Virus record (IMG/VR): IMGVR_UViG_3300045988_127492
Location: 87,921-151,920 of that record
Reading direction: 5' to 3' (one strand)
DNA from: a virus
Length of the DNA stretch: 64,000 bases
Shown piece after piece: positions 8,595 through 62,857 of the stretch. How positions within the stretch are numbered: the stretch's first letter is position 1; the number at the start of each line of letters is the position of its first letter. Position numbers and translations under genes: made by a program. A model generated the notes under the pieces. It was not told the origin of the DNA and searched no databases. It was given only the letters and a program-made list of their open reading frames with translations.

Positions 8595-8676
8595 TCCACC
8601 CAGAGAGACTCGAACTCTCACGCCGTTAAGCATTAGAACCTAAATCTAACGTGTCTACCAGTTCCACCATGAGTGG
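8595..8676 (-). tRNA. tRNA-Leu (anticodon TAG), class II
   Basis: Hand-folded. Acceptor CCACTCA/TGGGTGG. Anticodon stem TTAGA/TCTAA with loop TTTAGGT. Long variable arm. T-arm GAGAG-TTCGAGT-CTCTC. No encoded CCA. Confidence 0.8.
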
Positions 8677-8813
8677 GTACAACTGGCAGGTAAACTGCCA
8701 ATTGTTAATAATGAGAGCTACGATTATTTACTTATTCACTACTTACCAGCCTTGTACAAACTAAGAGCCAAGTATAATCATGCTCATAAACTTTTACCAA
8801 GGATTTGATAAAT

Positions 8814-8901
8814 CTTTATTCTTTATGCTTTATTCTTTAATCTTTAAATTGGGATAAACTTTGAATTTTGAATTTTAAGATTTGATATTTGAGCTTTGAA
8901 C
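8814..8901. repeat. two adjacent heptad tandem-repeat blocks: (CTTTATN)x5 then (TTTGANN)x6
   Basis: Read directly. CTTTATT CTTTATG CTTTATT CTTTAAT CTTTAAA at 8814-8848. TTTGA recurs at 8860, 8867, 8881, 8888 and 8895 in a 7-nt register. Confidence 0.7.
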
Positions 8902-9093
8902 TTTACAGCACTATGGCTATCTGCCTCATCTAATAATGTAAATATTAGACATACCAGTCTAATCCTTTTTGTATTTTATACCATTTGCTGTATAAGTAAT
9001 GCTGCAGTTTCTTTATTGTTTTATATATGTCTAACCCAGCTAAAAAGACATATAGATTATAGTTTAAAGTTTTCGATAAGCAGTGAATATATC

Positions 9094-9732
9094 TTAGTAT
9101 GTAATTTCGATTTCTGTCAGAGAATTACTTACTGAAAGTGCCGCATCTACTTCAGCAGTGAACTCTGCAATTTCTGTTTCCAAATCCTCCATTTCTTTAA
9201 GAACACCAATTGGATCAACAAGTTCCATTGTCTGAGCTTCTATATAAGCTTCTCTAGTTTTTGTAAACTCTTCAGTAGAGGTTTTACCTTCTTTACTGCC
9301 ATAGAGCCCTACAACATAATTTTCAGCTTTATCTTCCAATTTACCATTCTCAGTTATGATCTGAGCCATAGCAGCATCATACTGTTTTTTAATTTTCTGT
9401 TTTAAAAGTTTCTTGAAGTCCATTCCATGATTTTTCATTTCAATAGCTTCAGCTACTGTATACTCTTTATCGGCAACAGTGACTTTAGTTACTGCATTTG
9501 AAAGAACTACAGCTCTTTTAATAGCTTCTCTTCTCTTGATTAAATCAGTTGCTTTATCATAAGAAGATTTCATAACTCCTGTGTAAACTTTGATATCTAC
9601 ACCTTTGACTTTTGTGTTAGAATGCTTATTTGAAATACAAGCTTCTACACTGTTAATCGCTTTAATAATGCGATCATCTAAGATTTTCAGTTCTGCTAAT
9701 GCCTTATGGACATTCATTTTTTCTGTTGTCAT
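9094..9732 (-). CDS. hypothetical coiled-coil protein
   Basis: 212-aa ORF with a strong AGGAGG RBS and charged helical composition. No family named with confidence. Confidence 0.65.
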   Translation of the reverse strand: MTTEKMNVHKALAELKILDDRIIKAINSVEACISNKHSNTKVKGVDIKVYTGVMKSSYDKATDLIKRREAIKRAVVLSNAVTKVTVADKEYTVAEAIEMKNHGMDFKKLLKQKIKKQYDAAMAQIITENGKLEDKAENYVVGLYGSKEGKTSTEEFTKTREAYIEAQTMELVDPIGVLKEMEDLETEIAEFTAEVDAALSVSNSLTEIEITY

Positions 9733-9773
9733 AATAAATACCTCCTGAATTTTAAACTTTAAATTAGTTATCT

Positions 9774-9847
9774 GTGATAAGAGTGGACTCGAACCACTGA
9801 CGCCAAGAGCTATGTGCTCTCCGCTCTCCCAACTGAGCTACTTATCA
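9774..9847 (-). tRNA. tRNA-like gene with CAT anticodon and an aberrant anticodon loop (A33, C32:G38)
   Basis: Acceptor TGATAAG/CTTATCA, canonical D-arm GCTC-AGTTGGGA-GAGC and T-arm AGTGG-TTCGAGT-CCACT. The anticodon loop reads CACATAG and the variable region is 6 nt. Confidence 0.6.
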
Positions 9848-9910
9848 CTTTTCATGCATGACCTGTCGTGCTGCAGTCACAACAGGATTATGTGTACTTT
9901 TTCTTTCTCC

Positions 9911-10237
9911 TTATCCATTATAATTTTCTCCATAGATTGCGATTTCTGGTTTACCATTTTCATCTAATACGTAATATGGTGTAATGCCACTAATGCCACC
10001 ATAACGGTCTGAACCTTGTGCTACATATACAATTTTAGTAGTTTTATCATATACAAAATATTGACTGACCATATACCACCCATTACTCGATGCGATTTTT
10101 ATTTCCTTAAATTCAATAAATTGTCCAAATGATTGAACTTTTTCCCCACTGTCATTTATCTCTTTGTCACCACATCCTGCAAATGAAAATACCAATCCTG
10201 CCATCAATAATCCAACAGTCAAATTTTTAATTTTCAT
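9911..10237 (-). CDS. lipoprotein
   Basis: Signal peptide plus lipobox MKIKNLTVGLLMAGLVFSFAGC. 108 aa. Confidence 0.7.
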   Translation of the reverse strand: MKIKNLTVGLLMAGLVFSFAGCGDKEINDSGEKVQSFGQFIEFKEIKIASSNGWYMVSQYFVYDKTTKIVYVAQGSDRYGGISGITPYYVLDENGKPEIAIYGENYNG

Positions 10238-10353
10238 TTAACTTCTCGCTTCCTTAAGTAATTCTTTTGAATTTTCATCATCTAATTCAAGTTCTCGCTT
10301 GTTTCTTATTGGAACTTTACAGCCTATAAAAGTCACTCCTTCGTCAGGAGAAA

Positions 10354-10427
10354 TGGAAACTCTGGGACTCGAACCCAGGACCGACCGGTTATGAGCCGGT
10401 TGCTCTAACCAACTGAGCTAAGTTTCC
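10354..10427 (-). tRNA. tRNA with CAT anticodon (elongator Met or lysidine-Ile type)
   Basis: Canonical cloverleaf. GGAAACT/AGTTTCC acceptor, ACCGG-CTCATAA-CCGGT anticodon arm, CTGGG-TTCGAGT-CCCAG T-arm. Confidence 0.9.
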
Positions 10428-10795
10428 ATAGTGGGTGAACTTTGAAAACACCCACATATAAAAACGTAACAACTATAATGATTGATTTGTAATCATGTCA
10501 GCTACACGAACAGTCGTCACCATTCCGTTGCCCCATCACTCACCTCTACCTCACTGACTCAATTACTTTTTTCGCCTTATACTAATTACTCATTAGTACA
10601 AAGCACATCTATATAAATGTTTCGTACATCCAAACCATTACTACCAATGTACTGCGTTCCCTTTTTTGAACAGGTTCCAGTTATTAAACCATCCAAATTT
10701 TCACTTAAGTTTTATCTATGTTCGCCATGAACATAAGTAGGTATACCTTAGTTCTATTGGTTACCTCTTTGGCCTTCAGAGCTAACTTAGAACTA

Positions 10796-10867
10796 CGGGG
10801 TAGATGGGATTCGAACCCATGAATGCTGGAGTCAAATTCCAGTGCCTTGCCGCTTGGCCACTACCCT
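10796..10867 (-). tRNA. tRNA-Gln (anticodon TTG)
   Basis: Closely parallels bacterial tRNA-Gln (GCCAAGCGG D-arm, CTGGA-ATTTGAC-TCCAG anticodon arm, ATGGG-TTCGAAT-CCCAT T-arm). Has an A1-C72 mismatch. Confidence 0.8.
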
Positions 10868-16122: not shown

Positions 16123-17028
16123 TTATAAATAATTATAATATTTGATTCTAAGTGCCTTTTTAGTATAGCCATTTATATTATAATTTGAATTAACCTTTTT
16201 GATATATTGTTCTTCAAAAATTGTTTCTTTAGAAACGCCATATTTTTCCATTATGTCTTTTAATTGTTCCACTATCCCAGCTGTATAAAGTCGAGGTATG
16301 GTAAGATATGGAATATTTTCTTCTTTCCTAAGAACTATCAATCGACTTGTTAATCTTAAATTCAGAGCCTCCAACGTATTACTACGTATATTCTTCCTGG
16401 AGTTAACTATATTTCCCTCCATATTTAATGAAGTTACATTCCCAGTAGAAGATATATACTCTTCTTCTTGTGAACTAGCTTTAGCTAACTCTACTAATTC
16501 CTCTGATAAAATTCTTTTTTCTCCATTTTCAAAAGTAAGGATATTCCCGTTGAGTTTACTTATTTTAACTCTTAAAAGTTCACCAACTTCTTCTGTTCTT
16601 ACCCCTTCAAATAAAGCCAAAATTAAAAATTTATCAGAAAAATTTTTAAATTGGGAAATGTCTTCTAAAACTTGTGCTCTACTAGGGCACACTGCTTTCT
16701 CTTTATTAAGATATTTTTGTAAATATTCCGCACTTGTGCCTAGCTCATCATAATGATTTATATTATCAATTGAAATATTGCAAGAACAACACCAATCCGT
16801 ATACTTCCGTAAAATACTTATAATTTTTCTTATTGCATTTAATGAGGAAGCTAAAAATATAGGTAATAATTTATCTATCTCAGACAAAGTAAAATCACAT
16901 ATATCTTTATCAAGTAGTTCCTCATAACTCTCTGTTTTGTTAAAAAGCGATTTAGCACTTGATGGAGTTTGTTCAAGATCTTCTACTATATAACGTAAAT
17001 ACTCTTGCTTCCGTTCTTTGTTATACAT
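16123..17028 (-). CDS. tyrosine-recombinase-like protein lacking catalytic His/Tyr residues (possible MrpR/YopR-type repressor)
   Basis: N-terminal SAM-like region and box I-like LALFEGVRTEEVGELL, but no HxxR and no His at all in the C-terminal half. ATG 17028 with a GAGGAGG RBS. Confidence 0.45.
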   Translation of the reverse strand: MYNKERKQEYLRYIVEDLEQTPSSAKSLFNKTESYEELLDKDICDFTLSEIDKLLPIFLASSLNAIRKIISILRKYTDWCCSCNISIDNINHYDELGTSAEYLQKYLNKEKAVCPSRAQVLEDISQFKNFSDKFLILALFEGVRTEEVGELLRVKISKLNGNILTFENGEKRILSEELVELAKASSQEEEYISSTGNVTSLNMEGNIVNSRKNIRSNTLEALNLRLTSRLIVLRKEENIPYLTIPRLYTAGIVEQLKDIMEKYGVSKETIFEEQYIKKVNSNYNINGYTKKALRIKYYNYL

Positions 17029-17029
17029 A

Positions 17030-18244
17030 TCACACCTCCTCAAATAAAGCTTTTATTTTATTCAATTTTGTATCTGTAGCATTATCAATAATCGGTATAT
17101 CTTTTTCTAAGGCATTTTCTATTTTTTCTGCACACTTATATATATCTTTAGAAATTGATGTCCCATATATTATTACTGGCATAGTTGTATCGTCAAGTAT
17201 AACATCCGGATCATTCTCTTGCAGTATTTTCAAAATGCTTATAATAAAAACAGCAGTTCTAATACACTGGCTTCTATTCATCTTATTAGTTTTAAGAATA
17301 AACTCCAATAATGAAAATAGAGATGCTCTGTCTATTTCTCCTCTATGCGCTCTTTCAATCTTACCTCTTACAGGACTATCTAATGTATTGTTTAATTTAT
17401 CAATAATTATATTAGTAGGAGCTGATTTATCCATTGAAGCTAAATAGCTCTTAGAAATTTTATTTCTTTTATCTTCCTGTTCAATATACTGACATGCTTT
17501 ATTTTCTGAGAAATTCATGATATTCAGAATGAAATTAAACTGAAAATCAGGATTTTTTATTTTTGTATTCATTGCAGCTCTAAACCGGTGAAAACCATCA
17601 ATAATATCAAACTTCCCAGAATTAAGTACCAACTCAGAATCAACTATATCAAAATCCACATTTGGATCATCAACATTAAGATTTAAAGTCAGAGCATTAG
17701 GTACAAATTCTCCTTTACTCATTAAATCCTCGATAGCTTTTACAGATGTAGCAACTATATCAATTGTATATGATATATCTTGTCCTCTACGCCTTTGCTT
17801 AAGCTGACGCTGGGTCCTTGGATTATATATTATAAGTTGCTGATCATAAAGTTCTTTTAACAGATCAATGCTGATTTTTGCTACCCACTGATCTTCAGCT
17901 ATTTCTATTACCGGGCTTATTTTTATTGGATAAATCTCAGCTTTTCGATAATCTGCCTTCAAATTTGAAAAACGTACAATTTCTTTATCTGAGAAATATG
18001 TTTTTATTTCCATGTTTGCCCTAAAAACATTATTAAAAGCATCAATAAGCCAGTACATTTCATTATCTGGTATTTCATCTTTGCTCTTAGCACCGATAAC
18101 ATACTGCATATATTCTATATCTGAATATTCATATTTTTCCATAAGAAATTTTTTAGTTTCTTTCTTAAAGTATGAATTTTTTTGGAGCTGAGAAAAATAT
18201 CCATCCAATGTTTTATATAGGTTTTCACTTCTTAACATTTCCAA
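17030..18244 (-). CDS. DGQHR/ParB-Srx superfamily protein (DndB-like)
   Basis: 404 aa with FDIIDGFHRFRAAM (DG-x-HR motif). Length matches DndB-like proteins. Confidence 0.6.
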   Translation of the reverse strand: MEMLRSENLYKTLDGYFSQLQKNSYFKKETKKFLMEKYEYSDIEYMQYVIGAKSKDEIPDNEMYWLIDAFNNVFRANMEIKTYFSDKEIVRFSNLKADYRKAEIYPIKISPVIEIAEDQWVAKISIDLLKELYDQQLIIYNPRTQRQLKQRRRGQDISYTIDIVATSVKAIEDLMSKGEFVPNALTLNLNVDDPNVDFDIVDSELVLNSGKFDIIDGFHRFRAAMNTKIKNPDFQFNFILNIMNFSENKACQYIEQEDKRNKISKSYLASMDKSAPTNIIIDKLNNTLDSPVRGKIERAHRGEIDRASLFSLLEFILKTNKMNRSQCIRTAVFIISILKILQENDPDVILDDTTMPVIIYGTSISKDIYKCAEKIENALEKDIPIIDNATDTKLNKIKALFEEV

Positions 18245-53978: not shown

Positions 53979-55625
53979 ATGATTACAATAGCAAAGCAGA
54001 AAAAATGTAAAAGATACTTATTCAAGCTCCACAGTGAACGTCTTCGTAGGTCACGCTGGAAGCTAGAATATCCATTAGAGGAAGCTCTAAATACAGAAGA
54101 CATTATTTCTCTGTCAGATAGCCAGATTCTCAGGTTCATAGATGAAATGAACGGTGCCACCAGTGAAGCCAGAGAAGAAGAAGCTTCTTATATAAAGAAA
54201 GAAATCAAACGTCTCAAAAAATCTGATTCTTCTAAGAAAGATACTCTCATAGCAAATCTCTATAAAAGATTCTATAATCTTCAGTTTGTCCCAGATTACA
54301 TGTGTTTAATCATTGATAAGATGTCCGACTATGACAGAGCCAATAAAGGCTTTTCTATCAACGGAATTAAATATCACAGACTCTTAGGCACCAACGGGGG
54401 TGTGAAAAATTCTACCATCGTTTATGTCTCTGAGAGATTATACCCTCAGATCTATGAACGTCTCTGCTGCGGAAGAAACATGGAACAAAAATTTGTGCCA
54501 GCTAAACTTGAAGCATATCAGGCACTGATCTGTTCCGGTAGCATCCCAGTGAGTATGCCAAAAGGGGTCATAGTTGTCCCAGACTGTATCACTCATTTCA
54601 GAGAAGATATCATTCGTGTAGATGACTCCCAGTCAGATGAGCCAATCGTAGAATTTCTCAAGGATCAAGAAATAGAACTTACGGAATCAGACGGTTACGG
54701 AATCATGCTCCCATCACTCTCCTACCGTTGGGCTAGAGAACTTGATGAAGAAGAGGACTTTTTATCTGGCTGTAACCTCAGAGGACTCCCATGGACAAAA
54801 GGTATGGTATTCACAATGGATTACTTAGCTTTCGGAGAATCTGTAGCGAAAAACTTCTATATAAAAGATGCTTGGGGCGATCTGAGAGACATCAGAGAAT
54901 CTGAATTAATCATCACTACTTCTATGCTCAAACTCTGGGACTCCTACTCTTCTTTCGAAGATTACTGGTCCAATGTAGAAAAATATCATTATCAGATATC
55001 TATAGCTAAGACTGCTCCTGCAAGACTTGATGAGTACAGAAGCACAAATTACCAGTTCCTGCAGAATTACCACCTTACACCGGAAGAAGTAACTGAGTTA
55101 GTCCGTCCGACAGTAGAAGAAATTCAAGAAATCCTCGGATTAGACTACAGGAAGTCACTCCTGTTCCTGAGAGGAACTAATCTTACGGAAGATTCCTACA
55201 TTGATGAGGAACCGTATATTAATGCTCTTATGATAGAGCCACAGATGATCAACGATCCTTATATCAGAGATAGAATCTACAATATGATTAAGAAGAAGAT
55301 CAGGCAAGCTAAGATTGGTGTTCTCAAAGTAAGGGGTAACTTTGCCATCATTGGTGGGGATCCGTATAGTCTGATGCAGAGTATCTTTGATCTGCCAGTA
55401 ACTGGATTACTCCACTCAGGTGAATGTTGGCATAAACATTGGCTCGATCGAGGAGTCAGTGAAGTATGCTGCTTCAGAGCACCTATGACAAGTAAGTACA
55501 ATGTGCGCAAACTTAAAGTAGTAGGTACTCCTGATATGACTTACTGGTATAGATATATAAACACATGCATGTTGTTAAACTCATGGGATAGTACTAAAGA
55601 AGCTCTCAACGGAGCTGATTGTGAT
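53979..55625 (+). CDS. YonO / cellular-RdRP-like single-subunit RNA polymerase, exon 1
   Basis: SDGYGIMLPSLS and RAPMTSKYNVRKLKVV resemble the RdRP motifs SDG-x-G-x-(I/M)S and R-N-P-x6-V-R-V-L-x-A-V. The exon ends ...LNGADCD at a U. Confidence 0.75.
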
Positions 55626-56617
55626 AAAACTCTGTCACCTTATACAGCGATGTATATGTAAAACTCGGTGAACTTACAAATGTAAGGTGTCCGGTACAAC
55701 CGGGCTAACAGTGGAACTCTTATTGGAAAAATAGATTATAAAAAGAAGGTGAGAACAATAGAAGAAAGAATTTTAAATGTAAAAGGTATTGAGTACATAG
55801 TCCGTGAAGATGGAAAGGTATTCAGTACTCATAACCGTGGTCGAGGTAAATACCATCAAGAAATTAAGCAGCGTATGAATTCAGATGGATACATGTGCGT
55901 TACTGTCGGTAGAACAGGGAACAGATCATCTGCCAGAATCCATAGATTAGTGGCGGAAGCATTTATCCCTAATCCTTTAAATTTACCGGAAGTAAATCAC
56001 AAAGACTACGATCGCACAAACAACAGTGCAGATAACTTAGAATGGTACTCACATAAAGAAAATATTGACTATACTCTCGCTGCTGGCAGACATATTTCGC
56101 AGACTGCAGATTATAGTGGCAAGAAAAATCCCAACTATGGGAACACCACGTTAAGTCAAAAATATAAAGCTGATCCTGCATACTCAAAAGAAAAACAATC
56201 TCGTCCAGGAGGCAAGAATGGAAGAGCTATTCCAGTATGCTTGTTAGATAAAGACAAAAATGTAATAGCAACTTTTCCATATATGCAGTTGTGCGCAGAA
56301 TATGTGTTAGAGCAACTGCACTCTTCTTCATCTCCGGCAGGTCTAGCAGGAAGAATTCCATATTATATAAAAACAGGCAACATATATAAACACACATACT
56401 ATTTTTCCAAAGACAATACTGTGCTAAGTCTCAACAATGAGAACAGTTCAACGACTATCGAAAGCATAGCTTAAGAGAAATACTTAAGTAAAGAAGCAAG
56501 TAGAGTACCTTGTGAGTGAAATTCTCACAGGGGAAGTGCCGAGCATCTGTATCTTGGTGATAGAGTTACAGATGAAGATATAGTCTAGCCCTTATGGAAA
56601 CATAAGGTATTAAGTCG
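55626..56617 (+). mobile_element. group I intron (992 nt) carrying an HNH homing endonuclease ORF
   Basis: P1: exon GTGAT pairs with GTCAC (55634-38), forming a G-U at the splice site. P10: CTCT (55630-33) pairs with exon-2 GGAG. R-like GTTCAACGACTATCG (56446-60). S element AAGATATAGTC (56575-85). GAAA-tetraloop hairpin 56590-56607. The intron ends in G. Confidence 0.85.
55749..56474 (+). CDS. HNH-family homing endonuclease (intron-encoded)
   Basis: DGYMCVTVGRTGNRSSARIHRLVAEAFIPNP...VNHKDYDRTNNSADNLEW (H-N-H pattern). GTG start. The 3' end overlaps the intron core R element. Confidence 0.8.
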   Translation: MRTIEERILNVKGIEYIVREDGKVFSTHNRGRGKYHQEIKQRMNSDGYMCVTVGRTGNRSSARIHRLVAEAFIPNPLNLPEVNHKDYDRTNNSADNLEWYSHKENIDYTLAAGRHISQTADYSGKKNPNYGNTTLSQKYKADPAYSKEKQSRPGGKNGRAIPVCLLDKDKNVIATFPYMQLCAEYVLEQLHSSSSPAGLAGRIPYYIKTGNIYKHTYYFSKDNTVLSLNNENSSTTIESIA

Positions 56618-57703
56618 GGAGACTTAATGTTTACTACTAATAATACTATTCTATTAAAACATACAGAAAACTTACCGCCAATCTATTGTATTCAGCGTAA
56701 AGGAAACAAGGTAGTTCCGACTGAAGCAGATATGATACAAGCTAATAAAGGATCTTTTGGTGATGCGATTGGTTCTATTACTAATGTTATCACTTCACAG
56801 ATATGCTTACAGGCAAGGTTCCCGAAAGACAGTGAGGAATATAAAGTCTTAGACTACAGGATATTGTGTGGGCAAATGTTTCAACAGAATTCCATCGACA
56901 AAGCGAAGGGCATCATTGCCAAGCCCATGCCGAAACATTGGTATGACAATAACTACAACCGTATAGAAGAAACAGATACACCGGAAGAAATAGCTAAAAA
57001 AGAGTTCAACCAGAGGATCTGCGCAGATAAGAAGCCGTACTTCTTCATCTACAACTACCCTACTCTCATGAAAGAATACAAAGATTACATAAAAACATCA
57101 GATGCCGTGAGCAGGTCCAGATTCAATATTCCACTGGAAACGCTGCTGTCAGCACAAGATTTGACTGAGGAACAGGCAGAGTTTCTTAAATTTTACAAAG
57201 AGTTCTATCCGGTCAATGCAGAAACATGTGTAGTTAATGAACTCTGTTGGGAAATTGAGAAGGAACTTTCTGATGTGAAAGAAAGCAAGGTGCCGTTTGA
57301 TAGCTCTATTCTGAAATCGGATGCTGCTTACACTGAAAATGAAAAGATGTTCATTAAATATATTTATGACAAATATAACAAAGCCTATGCAAATAGAATG
57401 AGCCGCCATAGTTCTGTATATGAAGATACTTCTTTAACACCTATTGGGATGACCTTTGAATCAGAGTGCGCTGAGTATGTGCCAAATGCAGAAAAGCTTT
57501 GCAACATTCTGGTTGACTTAGGATATAACACCAAAAAAGGAAAAACTTTCATCTGGGAAATGTCCGGGGATACCATTATTGATAATCTTCTGTCTCGAAC
57601 AGATGGCTATGCTCAGTTTCCAGTAAAGGATCCAGACGGTGATATAGAGTTTTGCGGCGAACACTTCTCAATGAAAAAAGTAAAAATGAAAGGTGAAGAA
57701 TAA
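56618..57703 (+). CDS. YonO / RdRP-like RNA polymerase, exon 2
   Basis: In-frame GDLMFTTNN... begins right after the intron-terminal G. Joining the exons restores NGADCDGDLMF, compare the beta-prime motif NADFDGDQM. Confidence 0.75.
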   Translation, partial: GDLMFTTNNTILLKHTENLPPIYCIQRKGNKVVPTEADMIQANKGSFGDAIGSITNVITSQICLQARFPKDSEEYKVLDYRILCGQMFQQNSIDKAKGIIAKPMPKHWYDNNYNRIEETDTPEEIAKKEFNQRICADKKPYFFIYNYPTLMKEYKDYIKTSDAVSRSRFNIPLETLLSAQDLTEEQAEFLKFYKEFYPVNAETCVVNELCWEIEKELSDVKESKVPFDSSILKSDAAYTENEKMFIKYIYDKYNKAYANRMSRHSSVYEDTSLTPIGMTFESECAEYVPNAEKLCNILVDLGYNTKKGKTFIWEMSGDTIIDNLLSRTDGYAQFPVKDPDGDIEFCGEHFSMKKVKMKGEE

Positions 57704-58569
57704 TGGATTTAATACTTAATGAAAAACAATATGTAGAAAAAATGTTAGAGCTTGGTGATTGTAGTCCTAAAGATTTAGGGGCAAACATAGCTCTACTAAC
57801 CAGATATATGTATCAGGAAAATTATACTCAGAAAGAAATCTACAATGGTATAGAAGAATTTGCTTCCAAAGTAGATTCTGACTTTGACATTAACAACTGG
57901 TATTCATTTATAGACAAATGCATCAGTAAAGCTAAGAAGAGAGATCTGTTGAACATTGACTATATACCTGTTACCCAGAAAGAATTAGATACTATCAAGG
58001 AAATCAAGAATCCTGCCAGAGAAAGACTTGCATTTACTCTCTTAGTTATTGCTAAATTTAATAATTTGAAATCAGAGACAAATAATAACTGGATCAATTA
58101 TTCTATGGATGTATATTTTAATCTTGCTAGAGTAACGTGCAAAGTAGATGATCGTCCATATATGATTTATGATCTGAAAGAAGCTGGTCTAGTTGAAGTG
58201 AGCAAAAAGATAACTCGATTCAATATAAGAATCACATTTGTTGATAATGAGTCTGATCCGGTACTTAAAATTACAGATATGCGTGAGTTGGGCTACCAGT
58301 ACCAGAACTTAGGTCCGAAATCTAAGATAAAACTGTGTAAACGCTGCGGCAAGCCATACAAAGTAAAAAGTTCCAAAGCAAGAAGCGCTTTCTGCTCTGA
58401 CTGCCAGAGTATCCAAGAAAAGAAACCTAAAGTAATTAAATGTGAAAAGTGTGGTAAAGAGTTTTTGACATCACCCAAAAATAATAGTTCTACACTCTGT
58501 TCAGAGTGCCATAGAGAAGTAAAAAATGAAATCAATCGAACTTTTATGCGCAAAGCACGACAAAAATAA
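57703..58569 (+). CDS. hypothetical protein with two C-terminal zinc ribbons
   Basis: CKRCGKPY...CSDCQ and CEKCGKEF...CSECH. 288 aa. Its start overlaps the polymerase stop (TAATG). Confidence 0.6.
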   Translation: MDLILNEKQYVEKMLELGDCSPKDLGANIALLTRYMYQENYTQKEIYNGIEEFASKVDSDFDINNWYSFIDKCISKAKKRDLLNIDYIPVTQKELDTIKEIKNPARERLAFTLLVIAKFNNLKSETNNNWINYSMDVYFNLARVTCKVDDRPYMIYDLKEAGLVEVSKKITRFNIRITFVDNESDPVLKITDMRELGYQYQNLGPKSKIKLCKRCGKPYKVKSSKARSAFCSDCQSIQEKKPKVIKCEKCGKEFLTSPKNNSSTLCSECHREVKNEINRTFMRKARQK

Positions 58570-58600: not shown

Positions 58601-58642
58601 CTCCGCAAATGCGCTCTACAGGCGCGTTTGCGAGATTTCGTT
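58601..58642 (+). terminator. Rho-independent terminator candidate
   Basis: 13-bp GC-rich stem CTC(C)GCAAATGCGC / GCGCGTTTGCGAG with one bulge, followed by ATTTCGTT. Confidence 0.5.
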
Positions 58643-60350: not shown

Positions 60351-60968
60351 ATGGAAGAATTATTTGATTTTCCAATTATGAAAAGTGGGGTGGATGAATT
60401 AGTTGCTGATATCATCAAAAGCAATTATGACAATCGTAGATTAATCATCAATGATGAAATCAACAATAATCTGTTAGAATCCATCTGTCTCTATATTTTG
60501 AAATATAATCAGGAAGATAAAGATGTCCCTGAGGATAAAAGAAAACCTATCTGGATTATTCTTAACTCCGTAGGTGGGGTCGTAAACTTCGGAATGGGAC
60601 TTATTGATTGTATCAAACATAGCATCACACCTGTATATTGCTTAGTAATCGGAATGGCTGCAAGCATGGCAAGTTATATTCCAATGGTATGTGATAAGTC
60701 ATATATCTTTCCAAACAGTACCATTTGTATTCATGATGGACAGACTGGTATTATGCAGACTTCCAGAAAAGCAAATGATATCATGAACTTCTACAATAAA
60801 TGTGATGAAAGATTGGCTGAACTTGTATATGCTAACACTTCTATTACTAAAGAGTTCTTAGATGGTATTGCTGACCGTGAATATTATATGTTCCCGGAAG
60901 AAGCTAAAGAATTAGGTATCGTTGATATTATTGTTGGTGTTGACTGCTCTATTGATGAAGTATTATGA
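60351..60968 (+). CDS. clpP: ClpP-family serine protease
   Basis: LNSVGGVV, GMAASMASYI (Ser), ICIHDGQTG (His), ADREYYMFPEEAKELGIVDII (Asp region). Confidence 0.8.
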   Translation: MEELFDFPIMKSGVDELVADIIKSNYDNRRLIINDEINNNLLESICLYILKYNQEDKDVPEDKRKPIWIILNSVGGVVNFGMGLIDCIKHSITPVYCLVIGMAASMASYIPMVCDKSYIFPNSTICIHDGQTGIMQTSRKANDIMNFYNKCDERLAELVYANTSITKEFLDGIADREYYMFPEEAKELGIVDIIVGVDCSIDEVL

Positions 60969-61309
60969 AATATTCCAAAAAGGATTTAATCGCTAAAGTT
61001 TCAGAGAAAACAGGCTATCAGGAAGAAAGTATATCTGAAATATATGAAGCTTTAGAAGAAACTGTGTATGATTTGCTCCTCTCGGCAAATGAACATAAGG
61101 ATGTAGAAGTCCGACTATTTTCAGGATTCGGTATGTTCAGTAAATTAGTGCCAAGTCATGAGAAAAAGATGCCTGACGGAGAAATTAAAACAATAGAACC
61201 TACATTAAAGTTTTCTGCCCGTTACAGCGCTCGCTGGAGGAAAGATAATATCAAAGTGTACAGAGAAGCTTTAAAATTGTGGGAAAGAGTGAAAGGAAGA
61301 AAAGGATAA
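60965..61309 (+). CDS. divergent HU/IHF-like DNA-binding protein
   Basis: KKDLIAKVSEKTGYQEESISEIYEALEETV...GFGMF... follows the HU fold pattern. 114 aa. Confidence 0.55.
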   Translation: MKYSKKDLIAKVSEKTGYQEESISEIYEALEETVYDLLLSANEHKDVEVRLFSGFGMFSKLVPSHEKKMPDGEIKTIEPTLKFSARYSARWRKDNIKVYREALKLWERVKGRKG

Positions 61310-61501
61310 ATGAATGGCGTAGAGATTAAAACAACGACTACTACCCAGATGAAAATCAAGAAAGCCACTATTGATGAACAGGGAACTGTTTATGTAGATG
61401 GCGAGGTAGTTGATCTTATCAATGCACTGAAGAATACATTTGAAGATTGTATTTTTGATTTAGCAGTGACAGAAAAGACAGAGGTTCCTGTAGAGGACTG
61501 A
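61310..61501 (+). CDS. hypothetical small acidic protein
   Basis: 63-aa ORF abutting the previous stop. Confidence 0.5.
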   Translation: MNGVEIKTTTTTQMKIKKATIDEQGTVYVDGEVVDLINALKNTFEDCIFDLAVTEKTEVPVED

Positions 61502-61507
61502 TGTTGA

Positions 61508-62281
61508 GTGCCCTGTGGTATATATTGCATTGAGAATAAAATAAATCATAAAAAATATGTTGGACAGTCTATTGATATAAAGTCACGATGGACCCAACAT
61601 AGACATACAAGTTCTTTAGTAAAAGATACATTTCTTTATAGAGCAATGGACAAATATGGTGTTGAAAACTTCGATTTTTATATACTCGAAGAATGTCAAC
61701 CTGATGAACTAGACAATAAAGAAATTTATTGGATAGCTGCCCTAGATACATATAATCATGGATATAATATGACTCTTGGCGGATCAGGTTTAGTAGGTTA
61801 CAACGCCTACAATAGAAATTGTATTCCTAAAAACTTTGGTATGCTTTCTGACGGTGTAGATGAAACTGTACCTATTATAAAGTTAGATACCAACTATGAG
61901 GTACTAGAGTATTATGTAAGCGTACAAGACTGTGCCAGAGCTAATGGCATAGCTTCCACAAACATTTCTAAAACTGCATCAGGGAAAAATAATACATGTC
62001 ACGGATACATTTTTATGTATTTCAATGATATTAAGGATATGACAACTGATGAAATTATAGCTTATCGGTCACATCAAAGGGACCATTATAAAGATTCTAC
62101 TTTAAAATCTATAGATCGAATCTCCTCTTCTGGAGAAGTTATCAATAATTATGTAAGCATTGCTCAGGCAGCTAAAGAACTACATTTAGATGCATCTTCT
62201 ATAAGTAAGGTGTGCAAAGGAAAACTAAAGCAAACTCACGGCTATAAATTTAGATATGCCGTAGTAAACAATAAAGAATAA
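61508..62281 (+). CDS. GIY-YIG homing endonuclease (free-standing)
   Basis: GIYCIENKINHKKYVGQS...R...H...YN motif series. The C-terminal half has two repeated DNA-binding modules (SVQDCARANGIASTNISK / SIAQAAKELHLDASSISK). Confidence 0.8.
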   Translation: MPCGIYCIENKINHKKYVGQSIDIKSRWTQHRHTSSLVKDTFLYRAMDKYGVENFDFYILEECQPDELDNKEIYWIAALDTYNHGYNMTLGGSGLVGYNAYNRNCIPKNFGMLSDGVDETVPIIKLDTNYEVLEYYVSVQDCARANGIASTNISKTASGKNNTCHGYIFMYFNDIKDMTTDEIIAYRSHQRDHYKDSTLKSIDRISSSGEVINNYVSIAQAAKELHLDASSISKVCKGKLKQTHGYKFRYAVVNNKE

Positions 62282-62298
62282 AAGGAGAAATAAACATT

Positions 62299-62571
62299 AT
62301 GACAAAAGCAGAAGTAATTACAAAAGTAGCAGAGACAACAGGAATCACAAAGAAAGATACAGGTGCAATGGTAGACGCTCTTCTTCAGGTTATCACTGAC
62401 GAACTGGTAGCAGGCGGAAAAGTTGCTTTCACTGGATTTGGTTCTTTCTCAGTAGTTGACAGAGCTGCTAGAGAATGCCGCAACCCACAGACAGGAGAAA
62501 CTATGATGACAGAAGCTCATACTGCTCCGAAATTCAAAGCTGGTAAAGCACTCAAAGATGCTGTGAAATAA
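62299..62571 (+). CDS. hup: HU-type DNA-binding protein
   Basis: MTKAEVITKVAETTGITKKDTGAMVDALL...GFGSFSVVDRAARECRNPQTGETM...FKAGKALKDAV, near-canonical HU. Confidence 0.9.
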   Translation: MTKAEVITKVAETTGITKKDTGAMVDALLQVITDELVAGGKVAFTGFGSFSVVDRAARECRNPQTGETMMTEAHTAPKFKAGKALKDAVK

Positions 62572-62618: not shown

Positions 62619-62691
62619 GTCCGGTTAGTCTAGCGGTGTAGGACACTGCGCTTTCAATGCAGTAACATGGGTTCAAATCCCGTACCGGATA
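62619..62691 (+). tRNA. tRNA-Glu (anticodon TTC)
   Basis: GTCCGGT/ACCGGAT acceptor, GTCTAGCGG D-arm, CTGCG-CTTTCAA-TGCAG anticodon arm, ATGGG-TTCAAAT-CCCGT T-arm. Confidence 0.85.
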
Positions 62692-62698
62692 TTGGTAT

Positions 62699-62734
62699 AT
62701 TTGAGAGATGTGGGGAACCTCAAATGTCTTTTTT
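62699..62734 (+). terminator. hairpin plus T-tract after tRNA-Glu
   Basis: ATTTGAG..(13 nt)..CTCAAAT followed by GTCTTTTTT. Confidence 0.45.
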
Positions 62735-62784
62735 CGTAAAATCATTTTTTTTCATAGGAGAGCTAGAACTCTCCTCCTTTCTTT

Positions 62785-62857
62785 GGCTCTATAGTTAAGC
62801 GGTTTATAACACCTGCCTGTCACGCAGGAGTCCGGAGTTCAACTCTCCGTAGAGCCG
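62785..62857 (+). tRNA. tRNA-Asp (anticodon GTC)
   Basis: GGCTCTA/TAGAGCC acceptor, CCTGC-CTGTCAC-GCAGG anticodon arm, CGGAG-TTCAACT-CTCCG T-arm. Confidence 0.9.

What the first reader, a model, noticed from the sequence alone, without database searches (positions are those of the whole stretch)
53979..57703. YonO/RdRP-like single-subunit RNA polymerase gene split inside its DxDGD catalytic motif by a group I intron with an HNH endonuclease
The two ORFs 53979-55661 and 56627-57703 are one gene.
- Exon 1 ends ...LNGADCD at 55625 (a U).
- Nine nt upstream of the track's ATG 56627, the same frame reads GDLMFTTNN.
- Splicing 55625 to 56618 gives NGADCDGDLMF, close to the universal Mg-binding motif of two-barrel RNA polymerases (beta-prime NADFDGDQM; DxDGD in YonO and cellular RdRPs).
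- Upstream motifs SDGYGIMLPS and RAPMTSKYNVRKLKVV parallel conserved RdRP-family blocks.
- The joined product is 910 aa.

The 992-nt insert has group I hallmarks that I could read directly:
- P1: GTGAT|aaaactct GTCAC, with a G-U pair at the splice site.
- P10: CTCT with GGAG.
- An R-like element, GTTCAACGACTATCG.
- The S element AAGATATAGTC, pairing GACTA/TAGTC as P7.
- A GAAA-capped hairpin.
- A terminal G.

An intron sitting exactly on the catalytic triad of a phage-encoded non-canonical RNAP means polymerase activity depends on splicing. It is also a textbook homing site. A YonO-type polymerase together with an MrpR-like protein (16123-17028) suggests an SPbeta-like transcription strategy.
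Basis: partly seen in the sequence, partly recalled or inferred. Interest (0 to 1): 0.8.

Follow-up and report, generated by a model that had tools for sequence, protein, structure and literature searches.

The report
Self-splicing intron splits phage RNA polymerase
A gut-phage gene for a single-chain RNA polymerase of the YonO type is interrupted, exactly inside its metal-binding DxDGD motif, by a mobile group I intron carrying a homing endonuclease gene; this is a real and well-supported example of a known kind of selfish element in a host gene where it had not been described.

Summary
ORFs 53979-55661 and 56627-57703 are two exons of one gene. Joining 55625 to 56618 gives a 910-aa protein reading NGADCDGDLMF. 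Natural intron-less alleles (92-96% aa identity) are collinear with the window up to 55625 and resume at 56618, so the insert is 55626-56617 (992 nt).

The spliced protein matches SPbeta YonO (E 2e-25) and folds confidently (pLDDT 90). Its best structural matches are QDE-1 and RDR2 (E about 1e-16).

The insert passes the Rfam group I gathering score (50.4 against 50) and can be drawn as P1-P10 with every helix fully paired. It belongs to a large phage intron family whose helices covary strongly (covariation score 0.526 against 0.175 shuffled, 0/500). The guide sequence tracks the exon codon in all 18 distinct introns at this site.

The intron ORF is an I-HmuI-like HNH endonuclease. Intron-plus and intron-minus alleles are interleaved and differ fixedly only between -9 and +39 nt of the site, which is a homing footprint. 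Splicing and cleavage themselves were not tested.

The closest precedent is the PhiPA3 RNAP intron with its HNH nickase. I rate this a new member of a known kind, of moderate interest.

The parts
53979..55625 (+). Exon 1 of the YonO-type RNA polymerase gene (aa 1-549, ending ...NGADCD; last base U)
   Evidence: ORF. phrog_25339 matches at E 1e-191. It is collinear with the intron-less allele L006 up to 55625.
55626..56617 (+). Group I intron, 992 nt, ending in omega-G at 56617
   Evidence: Rfam RF00028 scores 50.4 bits. The boundaries come from intron-less alleles. Helices are, and family covariation.
55621..55638 (+). P1: exon GUGAU (55621-25) paired with the internal guide GUCAC (55634-38), U.G at the splice site. 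CUCU 55630-33 can pair with exon-2 GGAG 56618-21 (P10).
   Evidence: 5/5 and 4/4 pairs. The guide sequence tracks the exon codon in 18 distinct site-1 introns.
55641..55656 (+). P2 hairpin (UAUACA/UGUAUA, GCGA loop)
   Evidence: 6/6 pairs. 71% of cells are paired across the family, with changes on both sides at all 6 pairs.
55664..55668 (+). P3 5' strand CUCGG, pairing with CCGAG at 56539-56543
   Evidence: 5/5 pairs. 49 of 51 distinct strand combinations pair fully, against 12% when swapped. 99.4% of cells are paired.
55673..55705 (+). Two extra helices between P3 and J3/4: hairpin 55673-77/55682-86 and helix 55689-94/55700-05 (provisionally P3.1 and P3.2)
   Evidence: 5/5 and 6/6 pairs. There are 25 and 38 distinct paired versions in the family. 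99.4% and 98.6% of cells are paired.
55708..55734 (+). P4 5' strand (55708-13), J4/5, and the P5/P5a 5' strand (55723-34)
   Evidence: P4 pairs 6/6 with 56417-22 and P5a pairs 12/12 with 56399-410. P4 is 97.2% paired with compensatory changes.
55749..56474 (+). Intron ORF: I-HmuI-like HNH homing endonuclease (241 aa). It lies in the P5a loop, and its last ~75 nt overlap the 3' strands of P5a and P4, all of P6, and the 5' strand of P7.
   Evidence: Pfam HNH_3 scores 31.5 bits (cut-off 24.8). phrog_59 matches at E 4e-33. PDB 1U3E I-HmuI matches at E 3.4e-7. The overlap follows from the coordinates.
56399..56617 (+). 3' half of the ribozyme: P5a', P4' (56417-22), P6 (56423-47), P7 (56453-58 with 56580-85), P7.1 (56470-88), P7.2 (56508-32), P3' (56539-43), P8 (56544-74), P9 (56590-607), omega-G 56617
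   Evidence: All helices are fully paired.
56618..57703 (+). Exon 2 (aa 550-910, beginning GDLMF...; stop at 57701-03). The annotated ATG at 56627 is an internal Met.
   Evidence: phrog_35857 matches at E 4e-59. It is collinear with L006 from 56618.
55616..56656 (+). Homing-site / co-conversion tract in the exons (-9 to +39 nt around the insertion point)
   Evidence: These are the only fixed differences between 22 intron-plus and 8 intron-minus alleles over 2,733 nt.
57703..58569 (+). Downstream syntenic gene (288 aa, two zinc ribbons), probably co-transcribed; a terminator-like hairpin lies at 58604-58632
   Evidence: The start overlaps the polymerase stop codon. It matches the YonO C-terminal tail weakly at E 0.013. 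Synteny is seen in c-st, PMBT24 and BUCT082. The terminator scan is.

Best explanation
One gene encodes a single-chain, two-barrel RNA polymerase of the YonO/cellular-RdRP family. A mobile group I intron sits between codons 549 and 550, between the second Asp and the Gly of the Mg-binding D-x-D-G-D motif.

**Splicing (inferred).** The primary transcript folds into a group I ribozyme. P1 pairs exon GUGAU with the guide GUCAC. The core is P3-P9 with P7.1 and P7.2, plus two extra helices between P3 and J3/4. Guanosine attacks after U55625, and the freed exon then attacks after omega-G 56617. This joins GAU|GGA and restores DCDGD in a 910-aa enzyme. Unspliced RNA can only give a 560-aa fragment that lacks the third Asp and the C-terminal 40% of the protein.

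**Mobility (inferred).** The intron carries an I-HmuI-like HNH endonuclease in its P5a loop. This enzyme most likely nicks intron-less alleles in co-infecting relatives near the DxDGD codons. Repair then copies in the intron together with about 50 nt of flanking exon.

**Shown here:** the gene structure, the exact boundaries, the polymerase homology and fold, the ribozyme structure with covariation, the presence/absence polymorphism, and the co-conversion footprint.

**Inferred:** self-splicing, endonuclease specificity, and that the enzyme is a DNA-dependent polymerase for late phage genes as YonO is.
For: **Boundaries**
- blastn against the intron-less allele L006 breaks at 55625|56618.
- P0001, 92% identical, reads NGADCDGDLMFTTNN without interruption.
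- In the closest clade 8 alleles are intron-minus and 22 intron-plus.

**Polymerase**
- YonO aligns at E 2e-25 with FDNDGD over ADCDGD.
- D547, D549 and D551 are invariant in 52 homologues.
- A 56%-identical relative passes Pfam RdRP PF05183 across the motif.
- The AlphaFold2 model has pLDDT 90.2 and pTM 0.84.
- Foldseek finds RDR2 and QDE-1 at E 1e-16 to 1e-12, probability 1.0, about 900 columns.
- Mutating the YonO Asp triad abolishes activity (PMC5467207).

**Ribozyme**
- RF00028 scores 50.4 bits, E 7.7e-10.
- All helices P1-P10 are fully paired.
- Across the family, 86.9% of cells are paired, against 68.2% shuffled and 34-42% slid. The covariation score is 0.526 against 0.175, with 0/500 shuffles reaching it.
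- P3 pairs fully in 49 of 51 strand combinations, against 12% when swapped.
- All 18 distinct introns at this site follow a U, end in G, and have a guide sequence complementary to their own exon codon.

**Mobility**
- The ORF has an HNH_3 domain and resembles I-HmuI.
- Plus and minus alleles are interleaved within clusters of about 1% divergence.
- The only fixed plus/minus differences lie at -9 to +39.
- All plus alleles read GCT GAT TGT GAT|GGA GAC; all minus alleles read GCC GAC TGC GAT|GGA GAT.
- A different intron occupies the same site in L034, with converted flanking exon.
- 73 of 120 family members lie in YonO-like genes.
Against: - No RNA data exist, so splicing in vivo or in vitro is not shown.
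- The Rfam score is only just at the gathering threshold. The 5' half of that alignment is wrong, because the ORF splits the core.
- The window protein itself gives no Pfam hit at E <= 1. Only a relative passes PF05183.
- The endonuclease ORF starts at GTG with a Shine-Dalgarno-like AAGGUG overlapping the start codon, so its true start is uncertain.
- The ORF's overlap with P4', P6 and P7 could in principle impair folding while it is being translated.
- GGGAG at 56617-21 lies 5 nt upstream of ATG 56627 and could act as a ribosome-binding site for a separate C-terminal fragment. The same bases are forced by the Gly-Asp codons and are also present in intron-less alleles.
Confidence: 0.9

Rival explanations
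1. The gene is genuinely split. Two polypeptides (560 aa and 358 aa) are translated separately, with a free-standing HNH gene between them, and they assemble without RNA splicing. This would resemble the split beta/beta' subunits of jumbo-phage RNAPs.
For: - GenBank annotates c-st and the CB473 phages this way.
- PHROGs holds separate families for the two pieces.
- A GGGAG lies 5 nt upstream of ATG 56627.
Against: - A protein starting at ATG 56627 would lack G550, D551 and L552, including an invariant catalytic Asp.
- The intervening DNA is a complete, covarying group I ribozyme whose guide sequence matches the exon.
- Near-identical phages carry the gene uninterrupted.
- The GGGAG is dictated by the Gly-Asp codons and is also present in intron-less alleles.
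Confidence: 0.03
2. The intron has decayed and no longer splices, so the polymerase gene is a pseudogene in this phage.
For: Splicing is untested. The Rfam score is marginal. The ORF overlaps core helices.
Against: - Every helix is intact in the window copy.
- The same intron is kept in 22 independent contigs. Exons are under purifying selection, with about 90% nt but about 97% aa identity to the window.
- The HNH ORF is intact at 241 aa in the relatives.
- The low Rfam score is a property of the whole family. ORF-less members in intact genes score 20-39 bits.
Confidence: 0.05
3. The insert is another kind of element, such as an intein, a group II intron or an insertion sequence, or it is an assembly artefact.
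For: None beyond the bare fact of an insertion in a conserved motif.
Against: - The exon 1 frame runs into a stop 11 codons into the insert, so there is no in-frame intein.
- There is no reverse transcriptase or group II structure, and no terminal inverted repeats or target duplication. The exon sequence is exactly contiguous in empty alleles.
- The same structure is seen in more than 20 independent assemblies.
Confidence: 0.01

Closest known systems
PhiPA3 gp210 intron in the virion RNAP beta-like subunit gene (Birkholz et al. 2024, PMC11620839)
   Same: - A group I intron in a phage RNA polymerase gene.
- It is inserted beside conserved aspartates.
- It encodes an I-HmuI-like HNH enzyme that nicks the intron-less allele of a related phage.
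   Different: - The host gene there is a subunit of a multisubunit RNAP of a nucleus-forming jumbo phage of Pseudomonas.
- Here it is a single-chain YonO-type enzyme of a gut Bacillota phage, and the site is the beta'-type DxDGD motif itself.
- Cleavage and competition were demonstrated there and not here.
SPO1 DNA polymerase intron with I-HmuI (PDB 1U3E)
   Same: - The endonuclease family is the same (E 3.4e-7 over about 100 aa).
- It is a phage group I intron of the IA type with P7.1 and P7.2, in an essential polymerase gene.
   Different: - The host gene is different.
- From my own knowledge, not tested here, I-HmuI lies in the P8 loop, whereas this ORF lies in the P5a loop.
- This intron family has two extra helices between P3 and J3/4.
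SPbeta YonO (Forrest et al. 2017, PMC5467207)
   Same: - Homologous single-chain two-barrel RNAP (E 2e-25, 26% identity over 513 aa, Asp triad aligned).
- Phage-encoded, with an HU gene nearby.
- An MrpR-like protein is present in the same genome.
   Different: - yonO is uninterrupted in SPbeta.
- The window protein is 910 aa against 839 aa, and only aa 119-608 align well.
- The zinc-ribbon tail of YonO may be a separate downstream protein here, on weak evidence (E 0.013).
- The activity and target genes of the window enzyme are untested.
QDE-1 / RDR2 cellular RNA-dependent RNA polymerases (PDB 2J7N, 7W82)
   Same: These are the best structural matches of the spliced model (E 1e-16, TM about 0.45-0.5 over about 900 columns). 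They share the DxDGD motif.
   Different: Sequence identity is 12-14%. They are eukaryotic silencing enzymes. The window protein is closer in sequence to YonO, which is DNA-dependent.
Clostridium phage c-st CST179/CST178 and Enterocloster phages CB473P1/P3
   Same: They carry the same gene with the same kind of interruption. c-st (317 nt) and CB473P3 (433 nt) are interrupted at the identical codon boundary. The inserts are related introns.
   Different: - They are annotated in GenBank as separate hypothetical proteins, not as introns.
- The c-st and CB473P3 site-1 inserts lack an ORF.
- The CB473 phages have a second intron at aa 642|643 that the window gene lacks.

Membership tests
Group I intron | Conserved catalytic core (P3-P9 with the P7 guanosine-binding helix) recognised by the family covariance model | tested here: met
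   RF00028 scores 50.4 bits against a gathering score of 50, E 7.7e-10. This is marginal, and only the 3' half is aligned correctly.
Group I intron | Helices P1-P10 can be formed and are supported by compensatory changes in relatives | tested here: met
   All helices are fully paired. Covariation is 0.526 against 0.175 shuffled (0/500) and about 0.11 slid. P3 pairs in 49 of 51 combinations.
Group I intron | 5' splice site follows a U that forms a U.G pair in P1; the intron ends in G (omega-G) | tested here: met
   U55625 pairs with G55634, and G56617 is the last base. All 18 distinct introns at this site follow U and end in G, with matching guide sequences.
Group I intron | Guanosine-dependent self-splicing | not testable with these tools
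   This needs in vitro transcription and splicing, or RNA from infected cells.
YonO / two-barrel (double-psi beta-barrel) RNA polymerase, RdRP clan | Sequence homology to YonO across the catalytic region | tested here: met
   BLASTP gives E 2e-25 over 513 aa. tblastn hits the yonO genes of SPbeta-like phages at E 1e-16 to 2e-22.
YonO / two-barrel (double-psi beta-barrel) RNA polymerase, RdRP clan | Mg-binding D-x-D-G-D motif | tested here: met
   DCDGD is present at aa 547-551 only after joining the exons. The three Asp are invariant in 52 homologues.
YonO / two-barrel (double-psi beta-barrel) RNA polymerase, RdRP clan | Match to Pfam RdRP (PF05183) | tested here: inconclusive
   The window protein gives no hit at E <= 1. 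The 56%-identical relative P0023 scores 29.0 bits (cut-off 23.8) at aa 420-590. Many homologues carry the precomputed PF05183 label.
YonO / two-barrel (double-psi beta-barrel) RNA polymerase, RdRP clan | Fold similarity to solved two-barrel polymerases | tested here: met
   Model pLDDT is 90.2. Foldseek finds RDR2 and QDE-1 at E 2e-16 to 7e-12, the crAss-like vRNAP at 5e-4, and RNAP beta' weakly.
YonO / two-barrel (double-psi beta-barrel) RNA polymerase, RdRP clan | Template-dependent RNA synthesis (DNA-dependent for YonO) | not testable with these tools
   This is a biochemical assay.
HNH homing endonuclease, I-HmuI type | HNH catalytic domain | tested here: met
   Pfam HNH_3 scores 31.5 bits (cut-off 24.8) at aa 64-105. 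phrog_59 matches at E 4e-33. I-HmuI 1U3E matches at E 3.4e-7.
HNH homing endonuclease, I-HmuI type | Encoded within a self-splicing intron, with evidence of mobility | tested here: met
   The ORF lies in the P5a loop. There is presence/absence polymorphism, with a co-conversion tract from -9 to +39.
HNH homing endonuclease, I-HmuI type | Site-specific nicking of the intron-less allele | not testable with these tools
   This needs purified protein and a plasmid carrying the empty site.

The most novel reading that the evidence does not exclude
YonO-type polymerase genes of gut Clostridia phages may be the main habitat of a distinct group I intron lineage.
- The lineage is marked by two extra helices between P3 and J3/4.
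- It has colonised two invariant motifs, DxD|GD and ID|KAKG.
- Its cargo is interchangeable: HNH, HNH-AP2, an AntA-domain ORF, or none.

On this reading the endonucleases act as interference weapons between co-infecting phages, as in PhiPA3. The five silent changes fixed in intron-less alleles would then be resistance alleles rather than mere co-conversion markers. Splicing, in competition with translation of the ORF through P4', P6 and P7, would gate the onset of polymerase-dependent (late) transcription.
Probability: 0.25. Interest if true: 0.65.

Novelty: new member of a known kind. Interest (0 to 1): 0.45.

Why it matters
**Annotation.** This polymerase is filed in GenBank and in PHROGs as two unrelated hypothetical proteins plus an HNH gene (c-st CST179/178, CB473P1_00001-3, phrog_25339 and phrog_35857). 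Surveys of phage RNA polymerases therefore miss or miscount it.

**Detection.** The Rfam group I model barely detects this large intron family. ORF-less members score 20-39 bits against a gathering score of 50, which supports published concerns that phage introns are under-called.

**Biology.** The intron splits the catalytic triad of a non-canonical polymerase that, by analogy with YonO, drives late transcription. Polymerase production therefore depends on ribozyme activity.

**Population genetics.** The interleaved plus and minus alleles and the roughly 50-nt conversion tract give a natural system for studying intron homing, and possibly intron-mediated phage competition, in uncultivated gut phages.

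None of this overturns current understanding. It extends a known phenomenon to a new host gene and shows that it is recurrent there.

Tried and rejected
- **Near-DNA search of the phage collection**. It found only a 61-nt intron-core match in Yersinia phage phiR1-37. That turned out to be a related intron in a split DNA polymerase gene, not a relative of the phage.
- **PDB sequence search with the spliced protein**. There were no hits, and no YonO structure is deposited. Fold comparison was needed instead.
- **Rfam scan of five relatives at E <= 0.01**. It found nothing, which first suggested the relatives' inserts might not be introns. Local rescans and covariation showed they are, so the miss is a model-sensitivity problem.
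- **The Rfam placement of P3.** I considered taking the strand just 5' of J3/4 as the P3 5' strand and rejected it. It does not pair in the window, whereas the distal strand CUCGG pairs and covaries family-wide.
- **A first P4 register** was off by one and was corrected.
- **Close relatives in bacterial genomes.** None were found with P0001. The profile found only 43-50% relatives, all uninterrupted, in Clostridia, so the host is inferred only broadly.
- **Literature.** The whole-word search for 'group I intron' plus YonO would have missed plurals. I repeated it by word start, and again with 'YonO-like' and Enterocloster. No report of an intron in a YonO-type gene turned up. A search for 'P3.1'/'P3.2' did not settle whether the extra helices are a described subgroup feature.
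- **Promoter and terminator scan**. Promoter-like sites were not enriched, so nothing can be said about separate expression of the endonuclease.
- **The downstream ORF as the YonO C-terminus.** Only a zinc-ribbon match at E 0.013 supports this, and it is left as a weak lead.

Full report
**1. What is in the sequence**

The region holds three same-strand ORFs: 53979-55661 (560 aa), 55749-56474 (241 aa) and 56627-57703 (358 aa). The first ends its homology at ...LNGADCD, whose last base is T55625, and then runs 11 more codons into a stop. Nine nucleotides upstream of ATG 56627 the third frame already reads GDLMFTTNN. Joining 55625 to 56618 is in frame. It gives a 910-aa protein with DCDGD at residues 547-551.

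**2. The two ORFs are one gene, and the boundaries are exact**

- A protein-database search with the joined sequence returned more than 4,000 homologues. One is a 900-aa protein, 92% identical over 99% of the query, that reads NGADCDGDLMFTTNN without interruption.
- Its contig (L006) aligns to the window gene in two blocks that abut in L006. The blocks correspond to window 53979-55625 and 56618-57697. The insert is therefore 55626-56617, 992 nt.
- Among viral contigs of the closest clade (92-97% aa identity), 8 carry the gene uninterrupted and 22 carry the same insert at the same point.
- More distant homologues are continuous across the motif. These are PMBT24, BUCT082, contigs at 47-54% identity, and 80 copies in genomes or MAGs of gut Clostridia.
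- D547, D549 and D551 are invariant in alignments of 12 and 52 sequences.

**3. What the protein is**

- SPbeta YonO aligns at E 2e-25 (26% identity over 513 residues), with YonO's FDNDGD over ADCDGD.
- tblastn finds the yonO genes of SPbeta-like phages at E 1e-16 to 2e-22, spanning the junction.
- The window protein itself has no Pfam hit. A 56%-identical relative passes RdRP PF05183 (29.0 bits, cut-off 23.8) at residues 420-590.
- An AlphaFold2 model built on 52 homologues is confident and forms a single fold (pLDDT 90.2, pTM 0.84).
- Foldseek against the PDB returns maize and Arabidopsis RDR2 and Neurospora QDE-1 (E 2e-16 to 7e-12, probability 1.0, about 900 aligned columns). Next come the virion RNAP of a crAss-like phage (5e-4) and, weakly, bacterial beta' subunits.
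- YonO is a DNA-dependent RNAP that transcribes SPbeta late genes, and it is inactivated by mutating its Asp triad (PMC5467207).
- I infer the same activity and role for the window enzyme. This was not tested.

The SPbeta-like context holds:
- The window has an MrpR_N_CB protein, on the minus strand at 16123-17043 (72.9 bits).
- HU genes lie a few kb downstream, as yonN follows yonO in SPbeta.

**4. What the insert is**

Rfam's group I model reaches its gathering score (50.4 against 50; E 7.7e-10 for the window). Only the 3' part of that alignment (R, P3', P8, S, P9) is sensible. The 5' part falls inside the ORF. I therefore derived the structure directly. All helices below are fully paired.

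| Element | 5' strand | 3' strand | Note |
|---|---|---|---|
| P1 | 55621-25 | 55634-38 | U.G at the splice site |
| P10 | 55630-33 | 56618-21 | pairs with exon 2 |
| P2 | 55641-46 | 55651-56 | GCGA loop |
| P3 | 55664-68 | 56539-43 | |
| Extra hairpin | 55673-77 | 55682-86 | between P3 and J3/4 |
| Extra helix | 55689-94 | 55700-05 | between P3 and J3/4 |
| P4 | 55708-13 | 56417-22 | follows J3/4 (GCUAA) |
| P5a | 55723-34 | 56399-410 | 12 bp; its loop holds the ORF |
| P6 | within 56423-47 | | outer pair 56423-24/56446-47, inner 56429-32/56439-42 |
| P7 | 56453-58 | 56580-85 | |
| P7.1 | 56470-75 | 56483-88 | |
| P7.2 | 56508-16 | 56524-32 | |
| P8 | 56544-51 | 56567-74 | |
| P9 | 56590-96 | 56601-07 | GAAA loop |
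| Omega-G | 56617 | | last base of the intron |

**5. Comparative support for the structure**

- **Related inserts in the same gene.** The inserts at the same codon boundary in c-st (317 nt) and CB473P3 (433 nt), a second-site insert in CB473P1 and P3, and a different 991-nt insert at the same site in L034 are all recognisably related.
- **A large family.** Of 129 cores, 104 have the characteristic 5' module upstream.
- **Anchor-based strand extraction.** P3 pairs 5/5 in 49 of 51 distinct strand combinations, across about 22 different strand pairs. This compares with 12% when partners are swapped between introns. The two extra helices exist in 25 and 38 different fully paired versions.
- **Alignment-based count.** This used a MAFFT alignment of 36 sequences that was not fitted to any structure.
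  - 86.9% of cells pair, against 68.2% shuffled and 34-42% with the partner slid.
  - The covariation score is 0.526 against 0.175 shuffled (0/500) and about 0.11 slid.
  - P3, both extra helices, P4 and outer P6 are 97-100% paired.
- **Splice junctions.** All 18 distinct introns at this site follow a U, end in G, and carry a guide sequence complementary to their own exon. AAGGAU pairs with GUCCUU, AUGGAU with GUUCAU, UUCGAU with GUCGAA, UGCGAU with GUCGCA, and the window's UGUGAU with GUCAC.

This is strong evidence for a functional ribozyme and for the exact splice site. It is not a demonstration of splicing.

**6. The intron ORF and mobility**

- The 241-aa ORF has an HNH_3 domain (31.5 bits), matches phrog_59 (E 4e-33), and resembles I-HmuI (PDB 1U3E, E 3.4e-7).
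- It starts in the P5a loop. It then reads through the 3' strands of P5a and P4, all of P6, and the 5' strand of P7 before its stop at 56472-74.
- Intron-plus and intron-minus alleles are interleaved. One cluster with about 1% exon divergence holds 14 plus and 3 minus alleles.
- Over 2,733 exon positions, the only fixed plus/minus differences lie at -9, -6, -3, +6, +15, +28, +29, +37 and +39 from the insertion point.
- All plus alleles read GCT GAT TGT GAT|GGA GAC. All minus alleles read GCC GAC TGC GAT|GGA GAT. The TGT/TGC difference decides whether P1 can form.
- L034 has a different intron at the same site, with an AntA-domain ORF in P6. Its flanking codons are converted to SDKD|GDLYF.

These patterns are what homing with co-conversion produces. 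Cleavage was not tested.

**7. Recurrence**

Of the 120 loci found with the generic core pattern, 73 lie in YonO-like genes. About 32 inserts are at DxD|GD and 25 at aa 642|643 (ID|KAKG, also invariant). Several genes carry both. The window gene has only the first.

**8. Comparison with what is known**

- Group I introns with homing endonucleases in conserved motifs of essential phage genes are classical.
- The closest case is PhiPA3. There, an intron with an I-HmuI-like HNH nickase interrupts a virion RNAP subunit gene beside conserved aspartates and handicaps co-infecting PhiKZ (PMC11620839).
- A mobile intron in the beta-like RNAP gene of 201phi2-1 is also on record (PMC2919709).
- I found no report of an intron in a YonO-type gene in the held library.
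- The c-st and CB473 genes are annotated as separate hypothetical proteins.

**9. Verdict**

- The rivals are a genuinely split gene, a decayed intron, or another kind of element. Together I give them under 10%.
- It is a new member of a known kind, clean and recurrent. It is useful for annotation and as a natural homing system, but not surprising in principle. Interest is 0.45.

Noticed in passing
window 9000-9087 (-), with tRNAs at 8595-10867 (-) and 62619-62857 (+): A RAGATH-27 RNA (RF03100, 89.3 bits, gathering 76.1) sits inside a phage tRNA cluster. There are five tRNA genes in the window in all.
   Followed up: no
It lies on the minus strand and ends at 17043, not 17028.
   Followed up: yes
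window 57703-58569 (+) and 58604-58632: The gene overlapping the polymerase stop codon encodes a 288-aa protein with two CxxC...CxxC zinc ribbons. It weakly resembles the C-terminal tail of SPbeta YonO (E 0.013). It is syntenic in c-st (annotated 'YonO C-ter'), PMBT24 and BUCT082. A 12-bp terminator-like hairpin follows it. YonO's zinc-ribbon tail may be a separate subunit in this lineage.
   Followed up: partly
window 60965-62571 (+): Three genes lie in a row. 60965-61309 is an HU-like ORF matching only the N-terminal half of the HU domain. 61508-62281 is a free-standing GIY-YIG / I-HmuI-NUMOD endonuclease gene. 62299-62571 is a complete HU gene. This may be a second homing-endonuclease insertion event next to or within an HU gene.
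   Followed up: no
L094-L213 (IMG/VR loci); window 55664-55713: The intron belongs to a large phage family with a signature 5' module: NNNGG-UGAAC-hairpin-GGUGU-helix-GCUAAC. That is two extra covarying helices between the P3 5' strand and J3/4. Rfam RF00028 scores ORF-less members only 20-39 bits. I could not establish whether this architecture is a described subgroup.
   Followed up: partly
L004, L005, L095-L211; corresponds to window aa 642|643 (about 56894): There is a second recurrent intron site in YonO-like genes, between I642/D643 and K644 of the invariant IDKAKG motif, at the end of the long predicted helix 622-646. 25 of the fetched loci carry it, and several genes carry introns at both sites. 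The window gene is empty at this site.
   Followed up: partly
L034 1753-2743 (IMGVR_UViG_3300029249_000004): A 96%-identical host gene carries a different intron of the same family at the same site. Its ORF lies in P6 and has an AntA/AntB antirepressor-type domain (PF08346, 52 bits) instead of a classical homing-endonuclease domain. The flanking exon codons are changed to SDKD|GDLYF.
   Followed up: partly
L093 2387-2718 (Yersinia phage phiR1-37, NC_016163 about 110578-110909): The DNA polymerase of phiR1-37 is annotated as two ORFs (g167, g164). The gap between them contains a 61-nt stretch 87-89% identical to the window intron's P7-P7.1 region, plus R and S elements. This looks like an unannotated related intron in a Gram-negative jumbo phage.
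   Followed up: partly
PHROGs phrog_25339, phrog_35857, phrog_8308: phrog_25339 (558 positions) and phrog_35857 (354 positions) match exon 1 and exon 2 end to end, so they appear to be families built from intron-split fragments of this polymerase. phrog_8308 (847 positions) matched exon 1 over profile positions 56-552 and may hold unsplit versions; it did not match exon 2 at E <= 0.01.
   Followed up: no
window 56610-56627: A 7-bp hairpin (UUAAGUC / GACUUAA) spans the 3' splice site, pairing the last intron bases with exon 2. It is not conserved in other family members at this site, so its significance is unclear.
   Followed up: partly
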